Numbered from the stretch's first letter, positions 15,353 to 38,808 are shown. The stretch: DNA of 64,000 bases from an uncultured Methanosarcinales archaeon (GCA_964445485.1 CAYUPS010000001.1:76941-140940); one strand, 5' to 3'. Notes: generated from the sequence alone by a model not told the origin. Numbers and translations: made by a program.

Positions 15353-15387
15353 GCCCAAAAACCCCTGGCGCGGGCAGACGCCAGCAA

Positions 15388-15422
15388 CTATATAAACATT
15401 AGCAAGGCTAATTTTATATACG
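15388..15422. promoter_or_regulatory. back-to-back TATA boxes (TATATAAA 15390-15397 for aglB, TTTTATATAC 15413-15422 for epimerase)
   Basis: 90-bp divergent intergenic region 15353-15443. Confidence 0.55.
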
Positions 15423-15443
15423 AACCCTCGCAGGAGCATCCGC

Positions 15444-16388: not shown

Positions 16389-16427
16389 TGCATAAGGTAT
16401 TTAAGGGACTGCACAGAGGGAGAACGC

Positions 16428-17366: not shown

Positions 17367-17405
17367 ACCGCCGAGTTCTTATGCGAAGCCACATATGAAG
17401 GCACC

Positions 17406-20628: not shown

Positions 20629-20992
20629 GCACACGCACCTCCACGACAGTCGCGGCATATGTCGCCTCATCCAGAACGACTGGCAGAGTGCTGCCAACGG
20701 CAATCGGGTAGCCGCCGATGGTCCCATCCAATCCCGGGCGTACATGCCCCTTGAGAGTCAAGTTCCTGCCGGGGACAAGTATCTGCGGCTCCCAGCGGGA
20801 TATCTCGATAATCCTCGCATCGCCGGCGACGCCGAATGACATCGTCTCAGGGGATATTGCAAAAGGGAACTTCTCAACGCGCACGAAGATATCATAACCA
20901 TCAGGCTCCCCGCGAGGGAGAACAGCATACAACGCGAGCGAGACAAGAGCTATGCCGAGAGCCACGACCGCGATTCTATCAAGAGCGTGCAT
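20621..20992 (-). CDS. small N-terminally anchored hypothetical protein
   Basis: 123 aa; N-term TM MHALDRIAVVALGIALVSLALYAVL; translationally coupled to downstream membrane protein. Confidence 0.45.
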   Translation of the reverse strand: MHALDRIAVVALGIALVSLALYAVLPRGEPDGYDIFVRVEKFPFAISPETMSFGVAGDARIIEISRWEPQILVPGRNLTLKGHVRPGLDGTIGGYPIAVGSTLPVVLDEATYAATVVEVRVHE

Positions 20993-21003
20993 CGCGGAGC
21001 AAT

Positions 21004-21013
21004 CCTTATAAGC
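21004..21013. promoter_or_regulatory. perfectly palindromic TATA CTTATAAG between divergent operons
   Basis: 25 nt upstream of GT4 ATG 21034; 16 nt from minus ATG 20992. Confidence 0.5.
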
Positions 21014-21033
21014 GTCTTAAACCTTTCGAACGC

Positions 21034-22068
21034 ATGCGCATAGCGTTCTTCACCACGGACCTCTCCGGCGGCGGCGGACGGGTCTTAAGCACCCTCATTC
21101 CCTCGATGGCCCGCGAGCACGAGATCACGCTCATCCTGCGGCGCGCTCTTCCCGACCATCCTGCGCCGCACGGATGCGAGACAATCATCCTCAGGTGCAG
21201 CGCTCTCGGCAGGCCCGCACTGATCGCGCACATCCTCCGCAAAAGGCGCATCCATGCAGCAGTCTCACTCATGCCCGGCAATAATATCGCAGCGGCGCTC
21301 TCGCGGGCATATGGCTCCCGCGCGAAAATAATCATGACTGAGCACACGCAGCTCACTGCAGACCTCGCAAGCAGAGGACTATGGGGTCTGATGACGGCAT
21401 GGCTGGTGCGTCTCATTTACCCGATGGCAGACCGCATCGTCGCAGTCTCACCCGGCATCGCCCAGGACCTCCGCGCGCTCGGCGTCAAGAGACGCATCGA
21501 GGTCATACCTAACCCCTTCGATATCAAAGCAATCCGCGCGGCTGCACGGCACGGCCGCAAGAAAAAATCAATGCAAAAACGCATCATCGCGGCCGGACGG
21601 TTAAGCCGCGAAAAGGGGTTTGACGTCCTGCTACGCGCATTCGCCCTTCTCCCCTCAAGAATCAATGCTACCCTCACCATCCTCGGTGACGGTCCAGAGC
21701 GGCAGCGGCTCGCGGATCTCTCTAGAGATCTGCATGTCGACTCCCGCGTAAGTATGCCCGGCCGCACAGGGAATCCGTTCAAGACGATGGCGGGAGCGGA
21801 TGTCATCGTCGTCCCCTCGCGCTGGGAAGGATTCGGCAATGTCATCGTCGAAGCGGCGATCCTCGGCGTGCCGATTATCGCTGCCGACTGCCCCACCGGT
21901 CCGCGGTGGATACTCAAATCGGACGAGCATCTCGTGCCGCCTGAGGATCCGCGCGCGCTCGCCACAGCAATCGAGCGGCAACTGCTCCATCCCTGCCGTC
22001 CGAAAATCGACGTGAGTGAATATGACGTCGAGAGTATCGCGCAGCGCTACGGATCCATTCTTCGCTGA
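21034..22068 (+). CDS. glycosyltransferase family 4 (GT-B)
   Basis: ATG 21034 inside track ORF 20836; palindromic TATA CTTATAAG 21004-21013 ~25 nt upstream; C-terminal GT1/GT4 motif EGFGNVIVEAAILGVPIIA. Confidence 0.8.
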   Translation: MRIAFFTTDLSGGGGRVLSTLIPSMAREHEITLILRRALPDHPAPHGCETIILRCSALGRPALIAHILRKRRIHAAVSLMPGNNIAAALSRAYGSRAKIIMTEHTQLTADLASRGLWGLMTAWLVRLIYPMADRIVAVSPGIAQDLRALGVKRRIEVIPNPFDIKAIRAAARHGRKKKSMQKRIIAAGRLSREKGFDVLLRAFALLPSRINATLTILGDGPERQRLADLSRDLHVDSRVSMPGRTGNPFKTMAGADVIVVPSRWEGFGNVIVEAAILGVPIIAADCPTGPRWILKSDEHLVPPEDPRALATAIERQLLHPCRPKIDVSEYDVESIAQRYGSILR

Positions 22069-22910
22069 GGCTTCACGAAATGCATCTCCATGAGGTTATG
22101 CATTCTGAACAGACCGCCTAAACCGCCGACCAGCCGCCAATACAGCCGCACGAAGAAATTCTTCTCATGGCGGTACTCCTGACCGCTGAAGGTCTTGAAG
22201 AAGACCGGCAACAACCCTTCGCTGATGCCCGCGAGCGAGAGCGTCCACTTGTCAAAGCCGAGCAAGTGGAAGGGGACGAATGTCGGAGATATATGGATTG
22301 TCCTGCCGAACGGGTAGAGCAATGCATCGGTCAGGACGAAGAATATCCCCGCCTCATTCGGCATTTGACAGACGAGCGTGCCGCCCGGCTTGAGCCATTG
22401 CGCGCATCGGCGCACGAGCTCACGGGGGTTCTCAACATGCTCAAGCACATGAGACAGGACAACGACATCAAATGCCCCACGAGGGACACGGGCAGACGCC
22501 CATGTCGCCACCTTGATCGGCAATCCGTATTTGCGGCGTGCGTGTTCGACAAACACGGGAGATGGATCGAATCCCTCCGCATCGAAGCCGCGCGAACGCG
22601 CGAACGCAACTAGATCGCCGCGCCCGCACCCCACATCCAGGAGCTTGCCTGAGACGATGCCCCGACGCGCGAGACTTGAGAAGATGTGCGAGGTCAGACG
22701 CTCTTTGTCTTCGACACTCTTTGGGAAATATGAAATGTCCGAGTACATCCGTGCGATCTCGTCAGCACTCAGGCGAGGCATCGGATCCGCACGGATAAGA
22801 CTGCAGAACGAACACCGAACTATCCTGGTCTCGCGGAAATCACGGCGGCCCTTGCGCACGCCTACGAACTTTTTGCGGGTCGCGCCGCACAGGGGGCAAG
22901 GAGATCGCAT
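22047..22910 (-). CDS. zinc-ribbon + class I SAM-dependent methyltransferase
   Basis: 287 aa; N-term CPLCG...CSFC ribbon; LLDVGCGRGDL motif I, VVVLSHVLEHV motif; 3' end overlaps GT4 convergently. Confidence 0.75.
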   Translation of the reverse strand: MRSPCPLCGATRKKFVGVRKGRRDFRETRIVRCSFCSLIRADPMPRLSADEIARMYSDISYFPKSVEDKERLTSHIFSSLARRGIVSGKLLDVGCGRGDLVAFARSRGFDAEGFDPSPVFVEHARRKYGLPIKVATWASARVPRGAFDVVVLSHVLEHVENPRELVRRCAQWLKPGGTLVCQMPNEAGIFFVLTDALLYPFGRTIHISPTFVPFHLLGFDKWTLSLAGISEGLLPVFFKTFSGQEYRHEKNFFVRLYWRLVGGLGGLFRMHNLMEMHFVKPQRRMDP

Positions 22911-22988: not shown

Positions 22989-24275
22989 ATGAAACGCCGC
23001 GCATGGGCAGTTCTTGAACGAGTCCACACCCGTCTCTTCGGGCACCCCCCGGGAGAGAAGACCCGCCAGTTCCTTCAAGACATCATTGCGGTGTACGGCG
23101 GGACACTCATCGCTGGCGGGTTTGGACTCATCGGGTTCCTCCTCACGGCGAGGCTGCTGGGTCCGGAAGAGTACGGGAAGTTCAACCTCATCATCGCAAC
23201 GGCAGGATTCCTCATCATCCCCATGATCTGGGGACACACGACAGCTGCGGCGAAGTACATGCCTGCCGCAAAGAAGCCTGATCAAATAATTGCCTCCGTG
23301 ACAACCCTCGTACTTGGCAGCATCCTCATCTTCGGGGCACTGGCTTACGCATTGGCGCCGAGCATCGCCGCGATCATAGGATTCGACGCGGCGCTCATTC
23401 GCATGGCCACACTCTACGCAGCCATCCTTGCGGCGTACTACCTCGCAGAGGCTCTCCTGCGCGGACTGATGAGGATGGACATCGTCGGCATCGGCAGAGC
23501 GGTCCTTTCAATAGCGAGCCTCGCTGTCACTCTCGCGCTGCTCTTTAGCGCGGGAAATCACCGCGCGAGCACGCCAATTATCGCAGGCATCCTCGGGAAC
23601 GCGGTCTTTGTCTGCCTCGCGCTCCCGTGGATACGGCTACGCATCAACTCAATGACATGGGAATCCCTTCGAAGAATCCTCCATTATGGCCTGTTCACTG
23701 CGATCAGCTTCATCACGGGGACAGTCATGGCATATACCGACCGCGTGATGCTCAATGCGTTCCGCGGCGTGACTGAGGTCGGCATATTCGGCGCGTACCA
23801 GCTCCCCACGCTCTTCGTCAGCGAGAAACTGCTCGCGCCGTTCATCCTCGTCTTCTTCTCGACAGCCGCGGCATACCGGCACAAGCGAGCATTGTGCAAG
23901 AAGATGACGATCGTGCTGCCGCTCGCGGCAGCGGCCATCTTCGCGCTCACCGCAATCAGCGTGACAGCAGGTTTCGCGTTCCTCGGAGCCGCGTACCCCT
24001 TCTCCCTCTTGACTGCGATGGTATTCTGCGCCACAGCTGCGACATATTTCGCGGCGTCCGCGCGTATGTGGTTCATCGCGAGCACGGGCATCGCAGGCGT
24101 GCGCTGGTCCTGCCTCGCAGGCATCATCGGCATGGCAGTCAATATCGGAGGAAACTACCTGCTCATCCCGCTGCTCGGCGTTCTCGGAGCTGCGCTCAGC
24201 ACCTTCGGCGCTGCTGCCGCGCTGATAGCGATATCTATTCCCGCATTGCGCCGCACTATCGGAGGCGAAGATTGA
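22989..24275 (+). CDS. oligosaccharide flippase (Wzx/MOP superfamily, AglR-like)
   Basis: 428 aa, ~12 TM helices, polysaccharide biosynthesis protein architecture. Confidence 0.8.
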   Translation: MKRRAWAVLERVHTRLFGHPPGEKTRQFLQDIIAVYGGTLIAGGFGLIGFLLTARLLGPEEYGKFNLIIATAGFLIIPMIWGHTTAAAKYMPAAKKPDQIIASVTTLVLGSILIFGALAYALAPSIAAIIGFDAALIRMATLYAAILAAYYLAEALLRGLMRMDIVGIGRAVLSIASLAVTLALLFSAGNHRASTPIIAGILGNAVFVCLALPWIRLRINSMTWESLRRILHYGLFTAISFITGTVMAYTDRVMLNAFRGVTEVGIFGAYQLPTLFVSEKLLAPFILVFFSTAAAYRHKRALCKKMTIVLPLAAAAIFALTAISVTAGFAFLGAAYPFSLLTAMVFCATAATYFAASARMWFIASTGIAGVRWSCLAGIIGMAVNIGGNYLLIPLLGVLGAALSTFGAAAALIAISIPALRRTIGGED

Positions 24276-25123
24276 TGAAGTGCGATGTGACTATCGCAGC
24301 ATACAACGCAGAGCATGAACTCCATAGAACTGTTGAGTGCGTGCTACGCGCGATACCTGCTCGCGTCCTTGGCAAGATCGTAATCGTCAACAACAACAGC
24401 ACCGACGGTACTGCGAGAGTTATCAAAGAGCTGCAGAAAGAACACCCTGCGCGCATCAAAGCAGTCATGCACGCAGGGATGCTCGGGAGCGTCAGGTACA
24501 GGCAGGCGCAGGAGTGCTCCACCGAGTACATCATATATGTCGACAGCAATGTCCTCCTCCACCCCACATGGTGGCGCGTGGTGCGGCAGCACATCGCTGA
24601 CGATGTGGGCTGGATATTCGGACACACCAGGACAGTCTATCCGCAACCGTACCATGATTTCTTTGAGTGGACAATAAAGAAATTCGGGGGCGTGGGTTTC
24701 GGCGACACGCTTGTACGGCGGGATATCATCCTTGCCTGCCCCGAGATGAACCTGATCCATCTCGGCGAGGATAATTACGTCCATGACGCATGCAAGAAGA
24801 GAGGGGTGCGGCGCGTGTTCATCCCGACGCAGATTGCGGACCACGGAGTCATTGGCAGGCACGGCCTTTTCCTGCGGCACGTGCGGGCGGGCCAATCGTA
24901 TAGCATCAAGAACGGAATGGCCCGCTCAATCACGCGCTGCATCCGTTTCGCGGCAGGGGACTGCCTCAATGTGATTAGGTATGCGAGAGAGTCACGATGC
25001 AGCATGCACACCGCGCTCGTCTTGGCAAACGAGCTCATCCTCTTGCGGTGGGCATTCCTGGAAGGGATCCTGAGACTGCGGAAGCTCGTGCGCGATCCCG
25101 ACGCGAAGCGACAGCGGCGATAA
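24275..25123 (+). CDS. glycosyltransferase family 2
   Basis: ATG overlaps flippase stop (TGATG) inside track ORF 23894; N-term MKCDVTIAAYNAEHEL, DxD-type YVDSN. Confidence 0.75.
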   Translation: MKCDVTIAAYNAEHELHRTVECVLRAIPARVLGKIVIVNNNSTDGTARVIKELQKEHPARIKAVMHAGMLGSVRYRQAQECSTEYIIYVDSNVLLHPTWWRVVRQHIADDVGWIFGHTRTVYPQPYHDFFEWTIKKFGGVGFGDTLVRRDIILACPEMNLIHLGEDNYVHDACKKRGVRRVFIPTQIADHGVIGRHGLFLRHVRAGQSYSIKNGMARSITRCIRFAAGDCLNVIRYARESRCSMHTALVLANELILLRWAFLEGILRLRKLVRDPDAKRQRR

Positions 25124-26249
25124 GGGCCTCATAGCGCGGGAGAAGCGCAGGAATGTCGAGCGCAACGATGGACCGAGCTGCCTCGCGCGACAACCGCCTT
25201 CTCAGAGCAGCGTCGCAGAGCATCCTCTGCAGCGCGCGACTGAGAGCGATGGTGTCGGCAGGGGGCACAAGGATGCCGTTCACGCCGTCAGTAACGACGT
25301 CACGGACGCCGCCAGGGCAATCTGATGCGATGACCGGTGCGCCGCACGCCATTGCTTCGAGCAGCGCATTGGGCAGGCCCTCGTAGAGAGACGGGAGAAC
25401 GAATACGGTTGCGCGGCTCATCAGGGCATACGGATTCTCCAGGAAACCTGCGAACTCCACGCGCGACTCAATACTGAGAGCAACCGCTTGCGCATGGAGC
25501 CGCTCACTGAGTTCTCCTTTACCTATGATGATAAGCCTAAGATGCCTGTGCGCTGGCGCGATGGCTGCGAACGCGTCAAGCAGAGAAGAGAATCCTTTCT
25601 GCGCAGTCAGCCGCCCCGCGGCGAGGATGAACGATCCCCGCACAGCCACGTCTGCGGCGACAGCGAGTGAACGTATCCGTCGCAACGGCACCACATTCGG
25701 GATAACTTGCAACACGCGGCGGGAAATACCGAACTGCCGTCTGAGCTCGTCGGCAGTCTGCTGCGCATTGACAAGAACCGCATCCGCCCAAGGATAGAGC
25801 CATCTGGCCACGAAACGCCAGAGCCACGGACGGCGGAGCGTGACATTCGATGAGCTGAGATTCACGGATGGCGCGGCGCGCTCGCTCACTATCAGGCCCC
25901 CCTTCCAGCCCGAGAGCCGCGTGAGGAGCGCTATGAGATTGGGGCCGGGCATGAAGCTGACGAGCACATCCGGCTTCTGCTCGCGCAGCAGCATACGCAG
26001 CCGCCTGACAAGACGGAAGAGCGTCGAGACCCTCTCGAGCAGAGGGCCGCCCGGATCGCCGATGCAGAACACGGAAATTCCGCGAGGCACATCATAATCG
26101 AAGATCCGCTCATAGACTATGAGCAGCGGCTGGAAGCGGGAGGGATTGAGATTGCCGATGATGTTGAGCAACGAACGTTCCGCACCGCCGCCAATGAGGC
26201 ACGGAACGAGGAACGCCACCTTCACCCGACGGGTTGACTCGCTCGACAT
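25035..26249 (-). CDS. glycosyltransferase family 4
   Basis: ATG 26249 (M13 of track ORF); TTTATAAG (minus orientation of 26271-26280) ~26 nt upstream; C-terminal EGLPNALLEAMACGAPVIASD motif. Confidence 0.8.
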   Translation of the reverse strand: MSSESTRRVKVAFLVPCLIGGGAERSLLNIIGNLNPSRFQPLLIVYERIFDYDVPRGISVFCIGDPGGPLLERVSTLFRLVRRLRMLLREQKPDVLVSFMPGPNLIALLTRLSGWKGGLIVSERAAPSVNLSSSNVTLRRPWLWRFVARWLYPWADAVLVNAQQTADELRRQFGISRRVLQVIPNVVPLRRIRSLAVAADVAVRGSFILAAGRLTAQKGFSSLLDAFAAIAPAHRHLRLIIIGKGELSERLHAQAVALSIESRVEFAGFLENPYALMSRATVFVLPSLYEGLPNALLEAMACGAPVIASDCPGGVRDVVTDGVNGILVPPADTIALSRALQRMLCDAALRRRLSREAARSIVALDIPALLPRYEALIAAVASRRDRARASAVSGSLPGMPTARG

Positions 26250-26341
26250 GCACCACGCAGCACGGGACGGCTTATAAACCTGCATCGGCGGTCCGCGCGC
26301 GTTAGCTTATTAACCTCCGGCGGATTGCGCAGCGCACACCC

Positions 26342-27061
26342 ATGAATATAGTCATCGTCATGCCCGCATACCGCGCAGCGAAGACAATCGGCGCAGTGTT
26401 CGAACGTATCCCGCGCCAGTTCTACGACTCGCTCAAGAACATCGTGGTCGTCAATGACGGCAGCACTGACGACACGGCGGAAGTCCTCAAGGCGCTCGAG
26501 AAGAGATATCCGAAGATCAGCGTCATCGCCCACGAGAAAAACAGGGGCTATGGCGCCGCGCAAAAGACCGGATTCGCGGAGGCCGTACGGCTCGATGCGG
26601 ATATCGCCATTCTGCTCCACTCAGACGGCCAGTACCCTCCAGAGATGCTTCCTAAAATGATAGCCCCGATCAGTGACGGCAACGCAGATGTCGTGATAGG
26701 CTCTCGCATCCTCGGAGGCGAGGCCCTCAAAGGAGGCATGCCGCTCTACAAATATCTCGGCAACAGGTTCCTCACCGCCCTCGAGAACATCGCATACGGG
26801 ATGGATATCTCTGAGTACCACACAGGGTACTGTATCTACAGCCGCAAAGCGCTGCAGCGCATACCGTTCGATCGCCTGAGCGACACGTTCCACTTCGATG
26901 GAGAGATGATCATGATGTCCGGCAAGAAGGGCTTGAGACTGAGAGAGATCGGCATACCGACGAGATATGCGGACGAGAAATCCCATCTCAACCCGTTCAT
27001 CTACGGACTGGATGTGCTCCGCATCATCCTCCGCCACAAGATGGGAAAATATGACTTCTAG
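26342..27061 (+). CDS. GT2 dolichyl/polyprenyl-phosphate mannosyl(glycosyl)transferase (Dpm1-like)
   Basis: 239 aa; IVIVMPAYRAAKTIG, VVNDGSTDDT, HSDGQYPPE motifs typical of Dpm1/AglD-type synthases. Confidence 0.85.
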   Translation: MNIVIVMPAYRAAKTIGAVFERIPRQFYDSLKNIVVVNDGSTDDTAEVLKALEKRYPKISVIAHEKNRGYGAAQKTGFAEAVRLDADIAILLHSDGQYPPEMLPKMIAPISDGNADVVIGSRILGGEALKGGMPLYKYLGNRFLTALENIAYGMDISEYHTGYCIYSRKALQRIPFDRLSDTFHFDGEMIMMSGKKGLRLREIGIPTRYADEKSHLNPFIYGLDVLRIILRHKMGKYDF

Positions 27062-28340
27062 AACAAACGCCCCAAGACTTGCCTCAGCCACGAGAGCTGC
27101 GATCGCGATATTCCTCCTGGCGTTCATGCTGCGCGCTGCGCTCGCGGTTATCGTCACCACCAGCCCATCGAGCTTCGACGAACATATCCTCGGCGGGGAT
27201 TTTGAGAGGTATCACTCAATCGCCACGTCACTCCTGCGCGGCGAGGGATTCTCGGAAGGGCGGGGGCCGACAGCAATCAGCGCACCGCTCTACCCGCTCT
27301 GGCTCGCAGGCGCGTATTGGGCGGGAGGCATAACCCCCGCGCCAATCCTCCTTGCACAGCTGCTCCAGGCAATCGTTGGCGCAGCGACAGCAGTCGTTCT
27401 CTATGCCGCTGCGAGGTCATTCCTTCCCGAGCGTGCCGCCCGCGCCGCAGGCATCATTCTTGCAGTATATCCTCACCACATCATACTGAGCGTGCAGTTG
27501 CTGACAGAGACGCTCTTCCTCTTCTTCCTCGCCCTGTTCCTCTGGGCGTGGATTTCATGTGTTATCAAGCCAACACCCCTATCTGCCGTGCTAACGGGCG
27601 GCGCGTTCAGCGCAGCGGTGCTCACAAGGCCAGTCATCGTGCTATTCCTCCCCTTTGCGCTCGGGTTCATCATCGCCAAGAACGATGAACGAGCTGCGCG
27701 TATGCGCTGTTGTGCGCTCATCTTCTTGATCTCTGCCACGCTCATTCTTCCGTGGTCTATCCGCAACAGTCTCGCCTTCGGCTCGTTCGTTCCCCTCTCG
27801 ACGTGGGGCGGGCACGCGCTCTATCAAGGCAACGCGCCGAACGGAACGGGTGGTCAAGGTGGAGATATCCTGCTTTGGCGCGACTATGCGCCAATTGATT
27901 TCGCGGCAGCATACCCGAACATCACCCTCAACGAGGCAGAAAGAGACACCGCATACAAAAACGCCGCCATCAAGAACATCCTGGCGCACCCATTCGGATT
28001 CCTCATGCGCGCGCCGGCCAAGCTGCGCAATATGCTGCGCATCAATTATGAGGGCGCCTCGCTGAAGAACGGCATCGTGACGACGATGAGCTACGTGCCC
28101 GTGCTCCTCGCAGGCACCTTGGGGATGTGGCTGCTCCGCAGACACCTGCAGACACTCTGTCTGAGCGCGTTCCTCATGTACTACCTCGCGTTCCACGCAA
28201 TATTCTTCGGCATCATCCGGTACAGAATTGTCATAGAAATGGTCCTGGCGGTATTCGCAGCGTATGCAGTCCACCGAGCAGTCGCCTCCCTCACACGGCC
28301 ACATGAAAACTCAGGCAGAACACCTGCAAACGCCCCATGA
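27051..28340 (+). CDS. GT-C fold glycosyltransferase (PMT_2 / ArnT / GT39-like, lipid-phosphate-sugar dependent)
   Basis: ATG 27051 overlaps Dpm1-like stop by 11 nt; ~12 TM helices with extracytoplasmic loop RGEGF near first TMs. Confidence 0.65.
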   Translation: MTSRTNAPRLASATRAAIAIFLLAFMLRAALAVIVTTSPSSFDEHILGGDFERYHSIATSLLRGEGFSEGRGPTAISAPLYPLWLAGAYWAGGITPAPILLAQLLQAIVGAATAVVLYAAARSFLPERAARAAGIILAVYPHHIILSVQLLTETLFLFFLALFLWAWISCVIKPTPLSAVLTGGAFSAAVLTRPVIVLFLPFALGFIIAKNDERAARMRCCALIFLISATLILPWSIRNSLAFGSFVPLSTWGGHALYQGNAPNGTGGQGGDILLWRDYAPIDFAAAYPNITLNEAERDTAYKNAAIKNILAHPFGFLMRAPAKLRNMLRINYEGASLKNGIVTTMSYVPVLLAGTLGMWLLRRHLQTLCLSAFLMYYLAFHAIFFGIIRYRIVIEMVLAVFAAYAVHRAVASLTRPHENSGRTPANAP

Positions 28341-29404
28341 AATCCTCCCTGCTCCGCATCCTTGCCTGCCCCGCCTGCGCTGGTGCGCTCACTCTCCAGA
28401 CGTTTCGCAAGGAAGGGATGGAGATACTCGACGGCAAGCTAGCATGCCGATCCTGCGCAAGCGCGTACCCCCTCATTGCAGGGGTACCGCGCATGCTCGC
28501 GAGAGAATACCTCGGAGAAGTGGAGAGGATGCATCCTTCATTCTTCAAGGAGCATCCGGAATTCAGCACGGGGCGCTCAGCGCAGAAGAAGGGCCTCTCG
28601 CCCAAAGAGAGGACACAGAGGAGCTTCGGATATCAGTGGACTCGCTTCAGCCAGATGCATGAGACATTCCGGCACAACTTCCTCAATTATCTCTACCCCT
28701 CGACAGAACATTCATTCAAAGGCAAGGTTGTACTCGATGCAGGGTGCGGCTTCGGCAGGCATCTTTTCTATGCAGCCACGTTCGGCGCGAAGACGGCGGT
28801 CGGGCTTGATTTCAGCATCGCTGCTGACGTCTCATGGAACAACACCCGGCGGCTCCCCCACGCACATGTCGTCCAAGGAGACATCTATCATCCACCATTC
28901 CGACGAGAGACGTTCGATTTGGTCTATAGCGTCGGCGTGCTGCACCACCTGCCGACACCCGAGAGCGGATTCAGGAGCCTGCTGCCCCTCGTAAGACGCG
29001 GCGGAATCGCGCATGTATGGCTTTACAGCAAGGCGCGCCCGATCAGCAATACCTTGATGGAGGCTATCAGGGTATTGACAAGGAATCTACCCTTCAATGT
29101 GCTCTATTGCTTGTGCTACGCCTGCGCAATCCTCGACTACACAGCGATACGCGCATATACCGCGCTCGCGAGCGACAGAGGAACGAAACCTGTAGCGGAG
29201 GCCATCGCTCCCGCCCGCATCAAACTCTACTCCCGCTATCCCTTCCAGGTCTGCTTCGCGGATTGGTTCGACCGGCTCTCAGCACCCATCAGGTTCTATT
29301 ATGACGAGAAGGAAGTGCGCGCATGGTTCGAACGCGCAGAACTCTCAGATATACACACAAGCCCCACAGGGAGATACGGATGGCGGGGCAGGGGGCGAAC
29401 GTGA
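28337..29404 (+). CDS. Trm112-like zinc-ribbon + class I SAM-dependent methyltransferase
   Basis: ATGA overlap with upstream gene; N-term CPACAG...CRSC; VLDAGCGFGRH motif I. Confidence 0.75.
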   Translation: MKSSLLRILACPACAGALTLQTFRKEGMEILDGKLACRSCASAYPLIAGVPRMLAREYLGEVERMHPSFFKEHPEFSTGRSAQKKGLSPKERTQRSFGYQWTRFSQMHETFRHNFLNYLYPSTEHSFKGKVVLDAGCGFGRHLFYAATFGAKTAVGLDFSIAADVSWNNTRRLPHAHVVQGDIYHPPFRRETFDLVYSVGVLHHLPTPESGFRSLLPLVRRGGIAHVWLYSKARPISNTLMEAIRVLTRNLPFNVLYCLCYACAILDYTAIRAYTALASDRGTKPVAEAIAPARIKLYSRYPFQVCFADWFDRLSAPIRFYYDEKEVRAWFERAELSDIHTSPTGRYGWRGRGRT

Positions 29405-30462
29405 AAGCGCTCGTCATCGTCTCGCACGAAAACGGCCCTGCTGCGAGGTTCCGCATCTATCCGCTTCTCGATCGACTTCGCCAGAGAAGCATCGATGCAA
29501 CAGTCATCCCTTTTGTCGACGCCGCGTTCCACCGAGTATTATACAAAAAAGGGCACAGCGTTGCCAAGGCGTGGCATCTCGCACGGGCGCTCGTCCGTGC
29601 AGCGATACTGCCCATCCGCGCGCTGCGATATGATGTCATCCTCGTGCAACGAGAGGCATGCCTGATCGGCCCCCCGCTTATCGAATGGATGCTTTCGATA
29701 CTCAGACCACTCGTGTATGATTTCGACGATGCGGTTTATCTCGCGCCCAGCGGCCTGCGAGGTCTCCGCAAATGGCTCAGGAATCCTGAGAAGACCTCTC
29801 GGATCATCAAACGCAGCACGATAGTTCTCGCAGGGAACCAGACTTTGGCGAAGTATGCCCTGCTGCACAACCAAGCAGTGCGCATTCTCCCCACAGTTAT
29901 CGACACAGCATACTACCGCCCAGGGAACCGCCGCAATACAGTGCCCGTGATAGGCTGGACGGGCAGCAAGACCACGCTAGAATATATCCGACGGCTCACC
30001 CCCGCGCTAGAGCGTCTCGCCAAACAGCACACATTCGAGCTGCACATCATCGCCAATGATATCGCGCCATGGCAGATCACTGGCGTGAACACGAAATTCA
30101 TGGGATGGGAGCCTGACAAAGAGCTCCAGAGAATACAGAGTTTCGATATCGGACTGATGCCTCTTCCAGATGATGAGTGGACACGGGGCAAATGCGGGCT
30201 CAAGGCATTGCAATACATGGCATGCGGTGTCGCAACAGTCGTTTCGCCCGTCGGGATGAATCGGGAACTCATCGCAAACGGCGACAGCGGCCTGCACGCA
30301 ACGACGGATGAAGAGTGGTGCCGCGCAGTATCCTCCCTGCTAGAAGATGAGGCTCTCCGGGCGAGACTTGGCACGAACGGGCGGCTGACTGTCGCGTCGA
30401 GCTATTCCCTCGACACGGCAGCACCGATACTTGCAGCAGCACTTCTAGACGCAGGTGAATGA
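29380..30462 (+). CDS. glycosyltransferase family 4
   Basis: ATG 29380 within track ORF 29323; C-terminal ...GLKALQYMACGVATVVSPVG motif. Confidence 0.75.
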   Translation: MAGQGANVKALVIVSHENGPAARFRIYPLLDRLRQRSIDATVIPFVDAAFHRVLYKKGHSVAKAWHLARALVRAAILPIRALRYDVILVQREACLIGPPLIEWMLSILRPLVYDFDDAVYLAPSGLRGLRKWLRNPEKTSRIIKRSTIVLAGNQTLAKYALLHNQAVRILPTVIDTAYYRPGNRRNTVPVIGWTGSKTTLEYIRRLTPALERLAKQHTFELHIIANDIAPWQITGVNTKFMGWEPDKELQRIQSFDIGLMPLPDDEWTRGKCGLKALQYMACGVATVVSPVGMNRELIANGDSGLHATTDEEWCRAVSSLLEDEALRARLGTNGRLTVASSYSLDTAAPILAAALLDAGE

Positions 30463-31595
30463 ACATGGCAAAGATAGCGCACCTCATCACTCGTCTCATC
30501 CACGGCGGTGCGGATGAGAACACCATGCTGACTGTCGAGGGCCAGCTGCGCAACGGCCATGAGGTCACGATTGTCGTCGGGGAGGAATATGATGACGCGC
30601 TCGTCCAGAGTATGCGCGAGAAGGGCGCTGCATTTCACAGCGTGCCGCTGCGTCATTTCTCGCTCAAGAGCGCGATGCGCTGTGTCCGCCCGCTCGCGGA
30701 GTACCTGCGAGGGCAGGAGTTCGATATAGTCCACACGCATGAGACTGAGATGGGGATTGTCGGGCGACTCGCCGCGAGACGCGCAGGGGTTCCCTTCATC
30801 GTGCACACGGTGCACGGGGTTCCGTTCTCGCCACACCGCCCGCTATGGCTCAATACCTTCGTGTCGATTCTTGAGAGGTATTGCGCGCGGTTCACTGACG
30901 CGATCATCACTAATTCGGACAGCATCCGGGAAGAATATCTGCGCAGGAGGATCGGCCGCCGACGCCAGTACGTGACGGTGCACAGCGGCATCGACCTTCG
31001 GAAGTACGCGAGGCCTCTGCGGCCCGATGTCACTGCGCGACCGACGATAACAATCATCGCGCGGTTGGCGCAGGGCAAAGGCCATGGCGATCTCCTCAAG
31101 GCTGTCGCACGGCTGCGAGGGAAAATCCGCGGCCTGCGATGCATGATCGTCGGCGACGGAGAGCGGCGCGATGCGATCGCGCTCGCCATCGCGCGGCTGG
31201 GACTCAATAAGACTGCGAGTATCCTGGGCCATCGCGAAGACATTCCCGCCATCCTCGCGCAAACGACCGTCCTCGCGCTGCCCGCGTACTGGGAAGGGAC
31301 GCCCCGGGCCATCACTGAAGCGATGGCTGCCGGTGTTCCCGTTGTTGCGACGCCTGTCGGCGGTATCGCCGAGCAAGTGGAGCATGGTGTGAGCGGCTAT
31401 CTCGTGCCAGTCAAGGACCCGCTCGCGCTCGCGGACGCGATCGAGAAGATACTCCAGGACAGCGAGCTCGCCCACTCGATGGGAGCGGCGGGAAGGCATC
31501 GCGCAAAACAGTTCTCCAAAGAGGCCATGGTCCATGGCATCGAAGATGTCTATGACGCCCTCCTCAGATCGCACGGCGCCCTCCAGAAACCTTAA
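30459..31595 (+). CDS. glycosyltransferase family 4
   Basis: 378 aa; ATGA overlap; EGTPRAITEAMAAGVPVVATPVGG motif. Confidence 0.8.
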   Translation: MNMAKIAHLITRLIHGGADENTMLTVEGQLRNGHEVTIVVGEEYDDALVQSMREKGAAFHSVPLRHFSLKSAMRCVRPLAEYLRGQEFDIVHTHETEMGIVGRLAARRAGVPFIVHTVHGVPFSPHRPLWLNTFVSILERYCARFTDAIITNSDSIREEYLRRRIGRRRQYVTVHSGIDLRKYARPLRPDVTARPTITIIARLAQGKGHGDLLKAVARLRGKIRGLRCMIVGDGERRDAIALAIARLGLNKTASILGHREDIPAILAQTTVLALPAYWEGTPRAITEAMAAGVPVVATPVGGIAEQVEHGVSGYLVPVKDPLALADAIEKILQDSELAHSMGAAGRHRAKQFSKEAMVHGIEDVYDALLRSHGALQKP

Positions 31596-31620: not shown

Positions 31621-32628
31621 ATGCCCGCTCTGCTCACGTACGCGAATATCGCGCTCTCGTTCTTCGCGACGCTCCTCGTGCTGCCGTACTGGATCAGGCG
31701 CGCGAGAGAGCACGGTTTTGTCGGGACTGACATGCAGAAGCTCGACAAGCCGAAAGTCGCGGAGATGGGAGGCATCTGCGCGGTCTTGGGCATCATCGTC
31801 GGTCTGCTCACATATGTCGGCCTGCAGGTCTTCATCTATCATAGCTTCAATCCCGTGCTGTTCCAGCTGGCGGCGACGACGAGCGTGCTCATCGCGTGCA
31901 TGATCGGCCTGATCGACAACCTGCTGGGCTGGAAGATCGGGCTGCGCCAGTACCAGAAGGTGCTGCTGACGCTGCTCATCCCAATCCCGCTCATGGTCGT
32001 GAACGCGGGCGAGCATATCATGACACTGCCGCTCGTCGGGAACATCGATTTCGGCATCATCTATCCTCTTCTTATCATCCCGCTCGGCATCATCGGCGCG
32101 TCGAACGCGTTCAACATGCTCGCAGGCATGAACGGCCTCGAGGCGGGGCAGGGCATGCTGATCCTCGGCACGCTGGGATATATCGCGTGGGGGACGGGGC
32201 ACTCGCCGGCGGCATTGATCGCCGCGTGCGCTGTCGCTGCGCTGCTCGCGTTCTGGCTCTTCAACCGCTATCCTGCAAGGGTGTTCCCTGGCGATCCGCT
32301 CACGTACAGCGTGGGCACCATCATCGCGATTGTCGCCATCTTGGGCAACATGGAGAAGTTCGCGCTCATCCTGTTCATCCCGTACTTCGTCGAGTTCGTG
32401 CTGAAATTGCGCGGGGATTTCAAGAAGGAGAGCTTCGCGCGCGTGCGGCATGACGGGGCTCTGGAGAACCAGCATGCGCAGTGGTACTCGCTGACGCACG
32501 TGGCCGTGTCATTCCTGCGACGCGTCAAGGGGTCGGCGTATGAGCAGCAGGTGGTGTGGGCGATCCATCTCGCGCAGGCATTGCTGTGCATCATCGTGCT
32601 CTTCCTCTACCAACCGCCGATCGCCTGA
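31621..32628 (+). CDS. aglH: UDP-GlcNAc:dolichyl-phosphate GlcNAc-1-phosphate transferase (AglH / GPT, MraY-WecA family)
   Basis: 335 aa polytopic; NAFNMLAGMNGLEAG motif of polyprenyl-phosphate hexose-1-P transferases. Confidence 0.85.
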   Translation: MPALLTYANIALSFFATLLVLPYWIRRAREHGFVGTDMQKLDKPKVAEMGGICAVLGIIVGLLTYVGLQVFIYHSFNPVLFQLAATTSVLIACMIGLIDNLLGWKIGLRQYQKVLLTLLIPIPLMVVNAGEHIMTLPLVGNIDFGIIYPLLIIPLGIIGASNAFNMLAGMNGLEAGQGMLILGTLGYIAWGTGHSPAALIAACAVAALLAFWLFNRYPARVFPGDPLTYSVGTIIAIVAILGNMEKFALILFIPYFVEFVLKLRGDFKKESFARVRHDGALENQHAQWYSLTHVAVSFLRRVKGSAYEQQVVWAIHLAQALLCIIVLFLYQPPIA

Positions 32629-32632
32629 GCAT

Positions 32633-33463
32633 ATGCGCGTCCATGTCTTCGGCAGCGGCATCATCGCCCAGGGATTCTCGCGAGGATTGCTGCGGCGGGA
32701 CCATGTCATGTCTGCATCGGATACGCCAACGCATGATGCGCGGGAGGTGTGGGACGCTCTCGGCGGAGCGCGGCTCGACACCGTGCTCGATTGCTCGGAG
32801 CTGCGCGATGCGTACGCGTGCGAGCGCGGTCCGCAGGAAGCGTTCGCGCGCAACGTCCTCGGCCCGCTGACACTCGCAGAGTACTGCGCAGAGACGGGCA
32901 TATCCCTGACGCGGGTCACGAGCGGGCACATCTATGAGGGAGACGTGTGCGGCTGGCCGCATGGCGAAGCCGCGGTGCCGACGTATTGCAAGAGTGTGCA
33001 CAGCCGCACGGTCGCGATGGCGCAGCAGCTCCTGCCAACGGATGCGCTGCAACTTCGCATCGGATCGATCGTCATGGGCGAGCGCCATCCGGAGAATCTG
33101 CTGACGCATCTCGCGGACTGCGGGTATGGCGGAATCGTGCCGGAGAGCGTGATCACGCTCGATGATCTGGTGCGGACCGGGATCACGCTCATCACGCAGA
33201 GGGCAACGGGCGCGTACAACGTGGCCAATCCCGGCGGGATGTCTGAGAAGGATATCATGCAGGAATACCGCCGCCTGGTCGATCCGGCGGCGCGTTTTGA
33301 GGCGCTCAATCCCGTCGGCATCGGGTATGCGAATCCGCTGCGGACGTATTGCGTGCTGGGGACGGAGAAGCTGGAGGCAGCGCGCATCGTTTTGCCTTGC
33401 GCGCGCGATGCGGTGCGGGAGTGCTGCGAGGATTACTTCTTGGGGCTCCTGTCAGGGACGTAG
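32633..33463 (+). CDS. RmlD-like NAD(P)-dependent sugar-nucleotide reductase/epimerase (tentative)
   Basis: ATG 32633 within track ORF 32540; atypical Rossmann VFGSGIIAQGF; RmlD-like length and position in glycan cluster. Confidence 0.45.
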   Translation: MRVHVFGSGIIAQGFSRGLLRRDHVMSASDTPTHDAREVWDALGGARLDTVLDCSELRDAYACERGPQEAFARNVLGPLTLAEYCAETGISLTRVTSGHIYEGDVCGWPHGEAAVPTYCKSVHSRTVAMAQQLLPTDALQLRIGSIVMGERHPENLLTHLADCGYGGIVPESVITLDDLVRTGITLITQRATGAYNVANPGGMSEKDIMQEYRRLVDPAARFEALNPVGIGYANPLRTYCVLGTEKLEAARIVLPCARDAVRECCEDYFLGLLSGT

Positions 33464-33714
33464 CGGATGCTGACGTCCTCATCGCAGAACGCTTCCTCTT
33501 CGTCCGCGGTGCCTGTGACGATGCGCCAGAGCGCCCTGCCGACGCTCGCGAGGCGCGATGTCTCTTCGGCGTGGTTGCGCATGACCCCTGGCGATAGCAT
33601 ATGGATGACCCCGTATCGTCGGTGGGCAAGGGGATATTTAACCATTCTGTCGAGAAAATCACGGAATCGCTCACGGGCGTAAGCTTTATAATAGGTCTTC
33701 GGATAGCGCGGCGC

Positions 33715-38755: not shown

Positions 38756-38777
38756 GCACTTCCCGAGCGCCAGCAAG

Positions 38778-38785: not shown

Positions 38786-38808
38786 TTTGGTGGCGTGTCC
38801 CGACGGGC

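What the first reader, a model, noticed from the sequence alone, without database searches (positions are those of the whole stretch)
26342..29404. Dpm1-like Dol-P-sugar synthase, overlapping GT-C (PMT/ArnT-like) transferase and Trm112-type zinc-ribbon methyltransferase form a three-gene overlapping module
The GT2 gene (26342..27061) has the motifs of Dol-P-Man/Glc synthases. The next gene starts 11 nt before its stop and encodes a ~12-TM GT-C enzyme of the type that uses lipid-phosphate sugars on the outer face. The third gene overlaps by ATGA and fuses a CPAC...CRSC ribbon to a SAM methyltransferase. Together they suggest synthesis of Dol-P-hexose, its extracytoplasmic transfer to a protein or glycan acceptor (O-mannosylation-like or terminal N-glycan hexose, as AglD/AglS do in haloarchaea), and methylation.
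Basis: inference. Interest (0 to 1): 0.5.

Follow-up and report, generated by a model that had tools for sequence, protein, structure and literature searches.

The report
Archaeal lipid-sugar glycosylation operon segment
These three overlapping genes lie inside a longer operon in an archaeal surface-glycan gene cluster: a lipid-phosphate-sugar synthase and the membrane transferase that probably uses its product, next to a methyltransferase whose conserved partner is the following gene; it is a fairly ordinary new example of a known kind of pathway.

Summary
All three ORFs, the 11-nt and ATGA overlaps and the CPAC...CRSC ribbon are present.

The gene assignments also hold:
- The 239-aa GT2 most resembles polyprenyl-phosphate glycosyltransferases (P. 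furiosus DPMS, ArnC, GtrB) but has no transmembrane helix.
- The third protein is a Trm112-ribbon/class I methyltransferase fusion.

The unit is not a closed three-gene module. Overlapping genes continue downstream (GTGA, then ATGA), inside a 23-kb agl-type cluster that includes AglB.

Comparative data resolve two conserved pairs:
- **GT2 + GT-C.** The same 11-nt junction occurs in DPANN archaea, a large multi-TM protein is adjacent in 22 of 33 metagenome loci, and one homologue is a GT-C–GT2 fusion.
- **Methyltransferase + downstream GT-B.** They are adjacent in 14 of 83 loci and fused in one MAG.

A GT-C also flanks the methyltransferase in 13 of 83 loci. The methyltransferase has no predicted TM helix and needs SAM, so it probably acts in the cytoplasm. 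The sugar and the acceptor remain unknown. This is a new member of a known kind.

The parts
26342..27061 (+). GT2: soluble polyprenyl/dolichyl-phosphate glycosyltransferase-like enzyme (239 aa, no TM helix; C-terminal amphipathic helix 218-233)
   Evidence: Pfam PF00535 at 2e-32. The top NCBIfam hits AglJ, Dol-P hexose transferase and PpgS are full-length but below their cutoffs. Best PDB sequence hit is P. furiosus DPMS 5mlz at 1e-16. The model has pLDDT 92, and the top 18 Foldseek PDB hits are all DPMS, ArnC or GtrB. Zero TM helices by hydropathy.
27051..28340 (+). Compact GT-C glycosyltransferase (429 aa, about 10-11 membrane helices, no large outer domain); invariant D50 in the first outer loop
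28337..29404 (+). Trm112-type zinc-ribbon (residues 1-57) fused to a class I SAM methyltransferase with a conserved C-terminal extension (YPFQV..ADWFDRL..PIRFYY)
   Evidence: Pfam Trm112p and Methyltransf_11/25/12. NCBIfam Trm112_arch scores 60 bits against a cutoff of 77. PDB hit 6zxw_H at 6.5e-9 over residues 1-54. More than 1,200 full-length homologues at about 45-50% identity. Invariant C11, C14, C40 and the LDxGCGFGR motif.
29401..30462 (+). GTx: GT-B glycosyltransferase, the conserved partner of the methyltransferase (start GTG 29401 or ATG 29380)
   Evidence: Pfam Glyco_trans_1_4 and Glycos_transf_1. Homologues of 205-279 bits lie directly next to the methyltransferase in 14 of 83 loci. 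A single-ORF methyltransferase–GTx fusion occurs in L023. GTGA overlap.
30459..31595 (+). GT4 glycosyltransferase, overlapping GTx by ATGA
   Evidence: Pfam Glycos_transf_1 at 4e-39 and Glyco_trans_4_4. It is 42% identical to the gene in the same position in L001.
31621..32628 (+). AglH/WecA/MraY-type polyprenyl-phosphate HexNAc-1-P transferase (candidate initiating enzyme)
   Evidence: Pfam Glycos_transf_4 at 1e-31. It is 56% identical to the L001 counterpart downstream of the same methyltransferase–GTx–GT4 block.
32540..33463 (+). RmlD-substrate-binding-like reductase/epimerase gene (likely real start near 32636)
   Evidence: Pfam RmlD_sub_bind at 5e-8. No NCBIfam hit.
33601..35019 (+). NDP-sugar 6-dehydrogenase (TviB-like)
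   Evidence: NCBIfam TIGR03026 at 5e-108; TviB model 314 bits, below its cutoff.
22989..24275 (+). Wzx/AglR-type flippase candidate (the only flippase-like gene found in the cluster)
   Evidence: Pfam Polysacc_synt at 9e-15. 11 hydropathy TM segments. No GtrA-like small membrane ORF was found in the cluster.
19282..20745 (-). Second, unrelated PMT_2-type GT-C (487 aa)
   Evidence: Pfam PMT_2 at 1e-10. No significant similarity to the 27051-28340 GT-C.
22047..22910 (-). Second methyltransferase with an N-terminal Cys4 ribbon (CPLCG...CSFCS), Methyltransf_23/MetW type
   Evidence: Pfam. Homologues sit next to PMT_2 GT-C genes in DPANN loci L084 and L087.
12407..15544 (-). AglB/STT3 oligosaccharyltransferase (1045 aa), marking the cluster as N-glycosylation-related
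   Evidence: Pfam STT3 at 8e-12.
15444..19298 (+). Two SDR sugar epimerases/dehydratases (GalE- and TviC-like) and an AsnB-type amidotransferase
   Evidence: Pfam and NCBIfam. AsnB homologues of up to 716 bits occur in 26 of 83 methyltransferase-family loci.
20836..22068 (+). GT4 glycosyltransferase (real start probably near 21061)
   Evidence: Pfam Glyco_trans_1_4 and Glyco_transf_4.
24275..26285 (.). GT2 (24275-25123, +; start overlaps the Wzx stop) and GT4 (25035-26285, -; PglJ/PglH-like)
   Evidence: Pfam and NCBIfam.

Best explanation
The window comes from an archaeon. The finding is the front part of a translationally coupled operon of at least 5-7 genes (GT2, GT-C, methyltransferase, GT-B 'GTx', GT4, then an AglH-type phosphotransferase and an RmlD-like gene). 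This operon lies inside a roughly 23-kb agl-type surface-glycan cluster that also encodes AglB, a Wzx-type flippase, a second GT-C, a second methyltransferase, sugar epimerases, an AsnB-type amidotransferase and an NDP-sugar dehydrogenase.

Proposed mechanism:
1. [quoted passage not shown] There it transfers one sugar from a nucleotide sugar to dolichyl phosphate. This is inferred from fold and family.
2. The Dol-P-sugar is flipped. The Wzx-like protein is the only candidate found, and this step is inferred.
3. The compact GT-C uses the flipped donor on the outer face, with D50 in its first outer loop, to add that sugar to a glycan or protein acceptor. The pairing is shown by conserved synteny and a natural fusion. 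The acceptor is unknown.
4. The Trm112-ribbon methyltransferase probably works in the cytoplasm, together with the downstream GT-B. Together they add and methylate a sugar on the lipid-linked glycan before flipping. The partnership is shown by synteny and a fusion. The chemistry is inferred.

The 'three-gene module' is therefore two conserved two-gene units placed side by side. A weaker but recurrent link also exists between the methyltransferase family and GT-C genes.
For: Archaeal origin and cluster content: eIF2-gamma, a NOG1-type GTPase and STT3/AglB are present, and Pfam/NCBIfam assign the neighbouring genes.

GT2:
- Its best NCBIfam, PDB-sequence and fold matches are all polyprenyl-phosphate glycosyltransferases.
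- The family is 57-72% identical from DPANN archaea to rhizobia.
- In DPANN loci L084 and L087 the next gene starts at the same ATG inside K-Y-D-F-stop and encodes a 601-aa GT-C.
- In Sinorhizobium a PMT_2 GT-C lies directly upstream, with a formyltransferase and a GtrA-like gene nearby.
- In 33 metagenome loci with room on both sides, 22 have an adjacent ORF with 7 or more TM helices. Five of 10 sampled hit GT-C-clan Pfam families.
- Homologue P0160 is a GT-C fused to a GT2 that is 30% identical to this one.

GT-C:
- Pfam PMT_2 and a high-confidence model.
- D50 is invariant in the family alignment.

Methyltransferase:
- Its homologues sit in glycan clusters.
- A GTx homologue is directly adjacent in 14 of 83 loci, and the two are fused in L023.
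- The block methyltransferase–GTx–GT4–...–GPT is syntenic with L001 at 41-56% identity.
- A GT-C is adjacent to the methyltransferase in 13 of 83 loci, including the archaeal locus L024.
- GT-C homologues P0144, P0153 and P0158 carry C-terminal methyltransferase domains.

Precedents: the Hfx. volcanii AglD/AglR/AglS route and the AglP methyltransferase (PMC3871713); bacterial three-component systems (PMC11127046); mycobacterial PpgS/Rv3632/Rv3779 (PMC3485146).
Against: - No biochemical data exist. The sugar, the lipid and the acceptor are all unknown.
- The GT2 lacks the TM helices of DPMS, GtrB and ArnC. No GtrA- or DPM2/3-like partner was found in the cluster.
- The first Asp of the DxD motif is His.
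- The GT2's most constant neighbour elsewhere is an SDR epimerase (27 of 33 loci), not a GT-C. Half of the sampled multi-TM neighbours have no Pfam assignment.
- The GT2 could instead be an AglJ-like initiator.
- The methyltransferase domains fused to GT-C homologues belong to a different subfamily from this methyltransferase.
- The locus counts include related MAGs and have no formal null model.
Confidence: 0.6

Rival explanations
1. The three genes form one pathway: the GT2 makes a Dol-P-sugar, and the methyltransferase methylates that same sugar. Because the methyltransferase is probably cytoplasmic, methylation would have to happen on the Dol-P-monosaccharide (or its nucleotide precursor) before flipping. 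The GT-C would then transfer a methylated sugar on the outer face.
For: - The gene order GT2–GT-C–methyltransferase is tightly overlapped here.
- A GT-C lies directly next to a family member of this methyltransferase in 13 of 83 loci.
- The order GT2, multi-TM/GT-C, methyltransferase, GTx recurs in acidobacterial loci L022 and L030, with near variants in L020, L031, L021, L029 and L023.
- The three closest GT-C relatives carry a C-terminal methyltransferase domain.
- DPANN loci pair PMT_2 genes with methyltransferases.
Against: - The Dpm1-like GT2 is never directly adjacent to the methyltransferase family (0 of 83).
- The acidobacterial GT2s are of a different, ordinary GT2 type, and their GT-Cs are not orthologous to this one.
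- The fused methyltransferase domains are of another subfamily.
- The methyltransferase's clearest partner is GTx, through adjacency and fusion.
- To my knowledge, no methylated polyprenyl-phosphate monosaccharide donor has been described.
Confidence: 0.15
2. The GT2 is an AglJ-like initiating enzyme. It puts the first hexose on dolichyl phosphate, and the oligosaccharide is then built on that hexose, as in Haloferax. The GT-C has an unrelated role.
For: - The best NCBIfam hit is AglJ (4e-25, full length).
- Euryarchaeal N-glycans can be assembled on Dol-P (PMC3871713).
Against: - The AglJ score of 89 bits is far below the equivalog cutoff of 325.
- The cluster already has an AglH-type initiating phosphotransferase.
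- The GT2 family is 57-61% identical in bacteria and sits beside GT-C genes there too.
- A GT-C–GT2 fusion exists.
Confidence: 0.1
3. The GT2/GT-C pair performs protein O-glycosylation, like the PMT/Ppm1 pair in actinobacteria and eukaryotes, rather than decorating an N-glycan or polysaccharide.
For: - The Pfam family is PMT_2.
- The pair occurs in both archaea and bacteria.
Against: - The protein lacks the MIR/outer domains of PMTs.
- The dedicated PMT model PF02366 is not hit.
- AglB, ArnT and ALG12 score equally well.
- The gene sits within an AglB-containing glycan-assembly cluster.
- As of the 2016 review PMC4973528, O-mannosylation had not been described in archaea.
Confidence: 0.1
4. 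The Trm112-ribbon methyltransferase modifies a translation component (tRNA, rRNA or a release factor), as canonical Trm112 holoenzymes do. It would lie in the operon only by chance.
For: - Trm112-like N-terminal domain.
- Weak CmoB and PRMT hits for the catalytic domain.
Against: - The CmoB score of 40 bits is far below its cutoff of 209.
- Family members sit in glycan clusters across many phyla and are fused to a glycosyltransferase in L023.
- The literature notes Trm112–methyltransferase fusions with heterogeneous methyltransferase families and unknown function (PMC5372719).
Confidence: 0.03

Closest known systems
Haloferax volcanii AglD / AglR / AglS (with AglP methyltransferase)
   Same: This is an archaeal agl cluster in which one sugar is charged on its own Dol-P carrier by a GT2, flipped with the help of a Wzx-like protein, and added outside by a PMT-related multi-TM transferase. 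A cytoplasmic SAM methyltransferase modifies a glycan sugar (PMC3871713; PMC4973528).
   Different: - No orthology was shown.
- From my own knowledge (not tested here), AglD carries membrane-spanning segments, whereas this GT2 has none by hydropathy.
- In Hfx. volcanii aglD lies outside the cluster, whereas here GT2 and GT-C overlap by 11 nt.
- The methyltransferase here is a Trm112-ribbon fusion paired with a GT-B.
- The sugar is unknown.
Bacterial three-component extracytoplasmic glycosylation systems (GtrA/GtrB/GtrC; ArnC/ArnE-F/ArnT; the PPPRS/MATE/GT136 system of Kelly et al. 2024)
   Same: A polyprenyl-phosphate sugar synthase is paired with a GT-C transferase, and the synthase is conserved while the GT-C partner varies (429 aa here, 601 aa in DPANN, 542 aa in Sinorhizobium). 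ArnC and GtrB are top structural matches. The paradigm is described in PMC11127046.
   Different: - The synthase here lacks the two C-terminal TM helices.
- No GtrA-, SMR- or MATE-type flippase lies next to it.
- The host is an archaeon, so the carrier is presumably dolichyl phosphate.
Mycobacterium tuberculosis PpgS (Rv3631) / Rv3632 / Rv3779
   Same: A GT-2 polyprenyl-P-GalNAc synthase works with a GT-C (Rv3779) that uses the lipid-linked donor (PMC3485146). The PpgS NCBIfam model (226 positions) aligns over the full length of this GT2.
   Different: - The score is only 69 bits against a cutoff of 370, so it is not an orthologue.
- No Rv3632-like small membrane partner was found in the window.
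Trm112–methyltransferase fusions noted in bacteria and archaea (Bourgeois et al. 2017)
   Same: An N-terminal Trm112-like zinc knuckle is fused to a class I SAM methyltransferase. The review records such fusions, with heterogeneous methyltransferase domains and unknown roles (PMC5372719).
   Different: This family (more than 1,200 members) is tied to glycan clusters and to a specific GT-B partner rather than to translation. I found no description of such a link in the papers I read.

Membership tests
Polyprenyl/dolichyl-phosphate glycosyltransferases (GT2: DPMS, GtrB, ArnC, PpgS type) | GT-A fold GT2 catalytic domain | tested here: met
   PF00535 at 2e-32. The model has pLDDT 92 with a Rossmann-like beta/alpha pattern.
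Polyprenyl/dolichyl-phosphate glycosyltransferases (GT2: DPMS, GtrB, ArnC, PpgS type) | Closest characterised relatives are lipid-phosphate sugar synthases rather than other GT2 enzymes | tested here: met
   The top three NCBIfam hits are AglJ, Dol-P hexose transferase and PpgS, full-length but below their cutoffs. Best PDB sequence hit is DPMS 5mlz. Foldseek ranks 1-18 are all DPMS, ArnC or GtrB, with TM-score 0.62-0.75.
Polyprenyl/dolichyl-phosphate glycosyltransferases (GT2: DPMS, GtrB, ArnC, PpgS type) | DxD...Q metal/nucleotide motif (DAD-L-Q-x-PPE in DPMS) | tested here: inconclusive
   The aligned segment is H93-S-D95-G-Q97-Y-PPE. The second Asp, the Gln and PPE are kept and invariant in the family, but the first Asp is His (A4 invariants).
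Polyprenyl/dolichyl-phosphate glycosyltransferases (GT2: DPMS, GtrB, ArnC, PpgS type) | Membrane anchoring by own TM helices or a small membrane partner | tested here: not met
   Zero hydropathy TM segments in the 239 aa. No GtrA-like small membrane ORF in the cluster. Only a C-terminal amphipathic helix at 218-233. Soluble members with separate partners do exist, such as PpgS with Rv3632.
Polyprenyl/dolichyl-phosphate glycosyltransferases (GT2: DPMS, GtrB, ArnC, PpgS type) | Genomic pairing with a GT-C that consumes the product | tested here: met
   The window shows an 11-nt overlap. The same junction occurs in L084 and L087. Sinorhizobium L085 has a GT-C directly upstream. In metagenome loci 22 of 33 have an adjacent multi-TM ORF. 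P0160 is a fusion protein.
Polyprenyl/dolichyl-phosphate glycosyltransferases (GT2: DPMS, GtrB, ArnC, PpgS type) | Formation of a lipid-phosphate monosaccharide from a nucleotide sugar | not testable with these tools
   This needs an enzyme assay.
GT-C glycosyltransferases (GT-C_A: STT3/AglB, ArnT, PMT, ALG mannosyltransferases) | Polytopic membrane protein with the GT-C fold | tested here: met
GT-C glycosyltransferases (GT-C_A: STT3/AglB, ArnT, PMT, ALG mannosyltransferases) | Conserved acidic residue in the first extracytoplasmic loop | tested here: met
   D50 is invariant in 41 family sequences and Y54 is at least 90% conserved. It lies after TM1 at the start of the loop-1 helix at 49-62. 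Equivalence to the catalytic Asp of ArnT, PglB or AglB is inferred by position only.
GT-C glycosyltransferases (GT-C_A: STT3/AglB, ArnT, PMT, ALG mannosyltransferases) | Assignment to a specific CAZy family (GT39 PMT, GT83 ArnT) or to AglS | tested here: inconclusive
GT-C glycosyltransferases (GT-C_A: STT3/AglB, ArnT, PMT, ALG mannosyltransferases) | Large soluble outer domain for acceptor binding (as in STT3, ArnT, PMT) | tested here: not met
   The protein is 429 aa and almost entirely membrane helices, with one loop of about 90 residues at 244-337. Its relatives are mostly 390-440 aa.
Trm112–methyltransferase architecture | Cys4 zinc-knuckle Trm112-like domain | tested here: met
   C11, C14, C37 and C40 are present. 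PF03966 scores 32 bits against a cutoff of 22. Archaeal Trm112 chain 6zxw_H matches at 6.5e-9. NCBIfam Trm112_arch scores 60 against a cutoff of 77.
Trm112–methyltransferase architecture | Class I SAM methyltransferase domain with motif I | tested here: met
   Methyltransf_11 at 8e-16. LDAGCGFGR is invariant in the family.
Trm112–methyltransferase architecture | Catalytic domain orthologous to a known Trm112 client (Trm9, Trm11, Mtq2, Bud23) | tested here: not met
   The best named hits are CmoB at 40 bits (cutoff 209) and BioC at 35 bits (cutoff 185). The gene context is glycan biosynthesis.
Haloferax AglD/AglS/AglP pathway | Orthology of GT2 to AglD, GT-C to AglS and the methyltransferase to AglP | not tested
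   Reference sequences could not be retrieved with these tools, and the AglS paper is not held. Only a functional analogy is claimed.

The most novel reading that the evidence does not exclude
The repeated physical link between GT-C transferases and cytoplasmic methyltransferases may reflect a real biochemical step. That link shows up as adjacency to this Trm112–methyltransferase family in 13 of 83 loci, as GT-C–methyltransferase fusion proteins among the closest relatives of this GT-C, and as PMT_2/methyltransferase pairs in DPANN clusters. The proposed step is methylation of the dolichyl/polyprenyl-phosphate monosaccharide donor before it is flipped, so that a GT-C installs an O-methylated sugar on the outer face. 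A milder version is that the Trm112–methyltransferase plus GT-B cassette, sometimes fused, is an undescribed and widespread 'add and methylate' capping unit for surface glycans.
Probability: 0.15. Interest if true: 0.6.

Novelty: new member of a known kind. Interest (0 to 1): 0.3.

Why it matters
If the reading is right, this archaeon decorates a surface glycan or protein outside the cell with a sugar delivered on its own dolichyl-phosphate carrier. Among archaea, the literature I read documents such a route experimentally only for Haloferax.

The GT2 is unusually conserved: 57-72% identity from DPANN archaea to rhizobia among its best 120 hits. It is almost always flanked by an SDR epimerase and usually by a large multi-TM protein. 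It is therefore a good handle for finding such systems and for working out which lipid-linked sugar they make.

The Trm112-ribbon methyltransferase family (more than 1,200 members) has a fixed GT-B partner, and no function has been assigned to it. It gives a non-translational role to a Trm112-type domain. None of this changes current concepts. It extends them.

Tried and rejected
The single scan was therefore spent on the methyltransferase alignment.
- The source genome was not recovered in that scan, and exact look-up of the GT-C protein found no record. The organism is identified only as an archaeon.
- The word-index search made the GT-C look like an orphan, with 22 hits at 29% identity or less. 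The exhaustive search corrected this to 16,833 relatives.
- The A1 profile alone found a GT-C next to the GT2 in only 7 of 60 loci. It is too narrow, so I switched to hydropathy plus Pfam sampling.
- The afdb50 fold library was unavailable, and the AglS paper is not held, so no direct AglS comparison was made.
- NCBIfam typing of the epimerases did not identify the sugar.
- I considered and rejected a translation-related role for the methyltransferase, and the idea that the two GT-Cs in the window are paralogues (no similarity).
- Pfam gave nothing for the 184-aa four-TM ORF at 38264-38815, which I had checked as a possible GtrA-like partner.

Full report
**1. Observation**

The three ORFs are present exactly as described.
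- The GT2 gene (26342-27061) ends ...AAA TAT GAC TTC TAG.
- The ATG at 27051, formed by the Tyr-Asp codons, opens the next gene (27051-28340). This gives the stated 11-nt overlap.
- The second and third genes share ATGA at 28337-28340.
- The third protein begins MKSSLLRILACPACAG...GKLACRSCASAYP.
- Pfam assigns Glycos_transf_2 (2e-32), PMT_2 (2e-10, above the gathering score), and Trm112p plus several class I methyltransferase models.

The overlaps continue beyond the third gene.
- The methyltransferase stop (TGA 29402-29404) overlaps a GTG at 29401. This GTG, or an ATG at 29380, opens a GT-B glycosyltransferase gene that I call GTx.
- GTx overlaps a GT4 gene by ATGA at 30459-30462.
- An AglH/WecA-type phosphotransferase gene follows after 25 nt, then an RmlD-like gene.

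**2. Context**

The window is archaeal: it encodes eIF2-gamma, a NOG1-type GTPase and a 1045-aa STT3/AglB. From about 12.4 to 35 kb it holds a glycan cluster containing:
- AglB;
- two SDR epimerases (GalE- and TviC-like);
- an AsnB-type amidotransferase;
- a second PMT_2 GT-C;
- GT4 genes;
- a second Cys4-ribbon methyltransferase;
- a Wzx-type flippase;
- another GT2;
- the operon in question;
- a TviB-like NDP-sugar dehydrogenase.

I could not identify the organism further.

**3. The GT2**

Family and fold:
- The three best NCBIfam hits are AglJ, a haloarchaeal Dol-P hexose transferase and mycobacterial PpgS. All align full-length but score far below the equivalog cutoffs.
- The best solved relative by sequence is P. 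furiosus Dol-P-Man synthase (1e-16), followed by ArnC.
- A confident model (pLDDT 92) finds DPMS, ArnC and GtrB as its 18 best PDB matches.

Differences from those enzymes:
- It has no transmembrane helix. It ends in an amphipathic helix (residues 218-233).
- The DAD of DPMS reads H-S-D here, while the following Q..PPE is kept.

Conservation:
- The family is strikingly conserved. It is 70-72% identical in Woese-, Nano- and Altiarchaeota MAGs and about 57-61% identical in Sinorhizobium, Mesorhizobium and Terriglobales.

**4. The GT-C**

- The word-index search suggested an orphan. The exhaustive search found 16,833 relatives, the best at 37% identity and mostly 390-440 aa.
- An alignment of 41 members has invariant R28, D50, P79, G183, W235, R238, N239 and R390.
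- The model is confident (pLDDT 93.5, pTM 0.92) with 10-11 membrane helices.
- D50 sits just after TM1, in the position where GT-C enzymes carry their catalytic acidic residue. This equivalence is an inference from position.
- The N-terminus has three Arg residues before TM1, which suggests that it is cytoplasmic.
- Homologues carry C-terminal GT2, GT4 or methyltransferase domains, which need cytoplasmic substrates. This suggests that the C-terminus is cytoplasmic too.
- No finer assignment (GT39, GT83 or AglS-like) could be made.

**5. Is GT2–GT-C a unit?**

Yes, on several lines of evidence.
- In DPANN loci L084 and L087/88 the GT2 orthologue is followed, with the identical K-Y-D-F-stop/ATG 11-nt junction, by a 601-aa GT-C of a different subfamily.
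- In Sinorhizobium a 542-aa PMT_2 protein lies directly upstream. A formyltransferase, two SDR enzymes and a GtrA-like gene are nearby, an Arn-like set.
- Among 33 metagenome loci with at least 1.5 kb on both sides, 22 have an adjacent ORF with 7 or more TM helices and 27 have an adjacent SDR epimerase.
- Of ten such membrane neighbours, five hit GT-C-clan Pfam families (PMT_2 or PTPS_related), four hit nothing and one was something else.
- Homologue P0160 is a single protein with this GT-C family at its N-terminus and, at its C-terminus, a GT2 that is 30% identical (2e-25) to the window's GT2.

The pattern of a conserved synthase with variable GT-C partners is that of the Gtr, Arn and related three-component systems (PMC11127046). 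It also matches PpgS/Rv3779 (PMC3485146).

**6. The methyltransferase**

- It belongs to a large family (more than 1,200 hits, about 45-50% identity, full length). The family has an invariant zinc ribbon, the LDxGCGFGR motif and a distinctive C-terminal block.
- Members occur mainly in uncultured Acidobacteriota, Omnitrophota, Chloroflexota and Planctomycetota, and in DPANN and Bathyarchaeia archaea.
- Every context inspected in detail (L001-L003) lies in a glycan cluster. Most of the closer scan loci also carry glycosyltransferase or AsnB-type neighbours, but the most distant members (L073-L083, about 32% identity) show none.

I scored 83 loci with the window's proteins.
- A strong GTx homologue (205-279 bits) is directly adjacent in 14 loci.
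- A GT-C is directly adjacent in 13, including archaeal L024, where a 599-aa PMT_2 gene precedes the methyltransferase.
- The Dpm1-like GT2 is directly adjacent in none.
- In L023 (a Vicinamibacterales MAG) the methyltransferase and GTx are one 802-codon ORF.
- L001 shares the ordered block methyltransferase–GTx–GT4–...–phosphotransferase with the window, at 47, 41, 42 and 56% identity. It has no GT2/GT-C upstream.

The orthologous cassette is therefore methyltransferase + GTx.

The GT-C link is still more than nothing.
- In acidobacterial loci the order GT2, multi-TM/GT-C, methyltransferase, GTx recurs: L022 and L030, with near variants in L020, L021, L023, L029 and L031.
- Those GT2s are of an ordinary type, and only some of the membrane proteins hit PMT_2.
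- The three closest relatives of the window's GT-C carry C-terminal methyltransferase domains, but of another subfamily.

**7. Mechanism**

Shown:
- the folds and families;
- the two conserved pairings;
- the operon structure.

Inferred:
- the GT2 charges Dol-P with a monosaccharide in the cytoplasm;
- the donor is flipped, the Wzx-type protein being the only candidate (no GtrA-like ORF);
- the GT-C adds the sugar outside;
- the methyltransferase, which has no predicted TM helix and needs SAM, acts inside the cell with GTx on the lipid-linked glycan. AglP in Haloferax is likewise a SAM-dependent methyltransferase of the agl pathway (PMC3871713).

If the methyltransferase does serve the GT2/GT-C branch, it would have to act on the Dol-P-sugar itself. 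I keep that as the novel, low-probability reading.

**8. Comparison and novelty**

- The system works like AglD/AglR/AglS plus AglP, and like bacterial three-component systems. Membership in those specific families was not shown.
- The GT2 fails the own-TM-anchor feature and has a variant DxD.
- The GT-C lacks an outer domain.
- Trm112–methyltransferase fusions are already noted in the literature, with unknown function (PMC5372719).

Overall this is a new member of a known kind. Two modestly interesting by-products are a highly conserved soluble lipid-sugar synthase family and an uncharacterised Trm112-ribbon methyltransferase/GT-B cassette.

**9. Limits**

- Locus counts include related MAGs and duplicate contigs, and they have no null model.
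- ORFs were taken stop-to-stop.
- TM counts come from simple hydropathy.
- Sugar identity, acceptor, lipid and enzyme activities are all untested.

Noticed in passing
window 52811-63985 (-) and 58166-64000 (+): There is an uninterrupted 3724-aa ORF with no Pfam hit. Several 220-580-aa ORFs with 4-6 predicted TM segments lie on the opposite strand over the same DNA. Which strand codes is unclear.
   Followed up: partly
window 47668-50697 (-): A 1009-aa ORF has no Pfam hit. It abuts or overlaps tRNA-Arg(TCG) at 50615-50688.
   Followed up: no
L023 9908-12313 (Vicinamibacterales MAG JBFWOG010000003.1): This is a natural single-ORF fusion of the Trm112-ribbon methyltransferase with the GTx-type GT-B glycosyltransferase, joined by a Pro/Thr/Ala-rich linker of about 30 residues.
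   Followed up: yes
window 27048-27061; L084 and L087 5707-5720: The conserved C-terminus K-Y-D-F-stop of the GT2 family carries the start codon of the downstream GT-C gene (TAT GAC gives ATG). The 11-nt overlap is therefore preserved between this archaeon and DPANN archaea although the GT-C partners differ.
   Followed up: yes
proteins P0167, P0169 (also P0176, P0223, P0225, P0251 by length): Relatives of this GT-C of 1300-1480 aa exist. The two scanned (P0167, P0169) carry YhdP/DUF748 (AsmA-like lipid-transport) regions. Others are fused to GT4 (P0207) or are tandem PMT_2 duplications (P0163, P0265).
   Followed up: partly
loci L089-L168 (metagenome) and L085: The most constant neighbour of the GT2 family is a 380-390-aa GalE-like SDR with an insertion of about 40 residues that splits the match in two. 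It is adjacent in 27 of 33 loci, and no NCBIfam model reaches its cutoff. It may define the sugar carried. No copy lies next to the GT2 in the window.
   Followed up: partly
window 17406-19298 (+): The AsnB-type amidotransferase is very conserved (up to 716 bits, 52% identity) in 26 of 83 loci that hold the methyltransferase family. Together with the TviB/TviC-like genes, this hints at an amidated HexNAc-uronic acid in the glycan.
   Followed up: no
window 22047-22910 (-) and 19282-20745 (-); L084 1-2091; L087 279-2788: A second Cys4-ribbon methyltransferase (Methyltransf_23/MetW) and a second PMT_2 GT-C lie in the cluster. In DPANN loci, homologues of this methyltransferase type sit directly beside PMT_2 genes. 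In L087 the order is a partial GT2 ORF at the locus edge, then the methyltransferase, then the GT-C, all overlapping.
   Followed up: partly
L123 6830-9091: A 754-aa protein with 12 TM helices lies next to a GT2 family member. It carries a spermine/spermidine-synthase-like domain rather than a recognisable GT-C domain.
   Followed up: no
window 26000-30000: GC content is slightly lower here (0.58) than the window mean of about 0.62. The closest methyltransferase relatives are bacterial (47-53% identity) rather than archaeal (36-43%). This is compatible with lateral acquisition of part of the operon.
   Followed up: no
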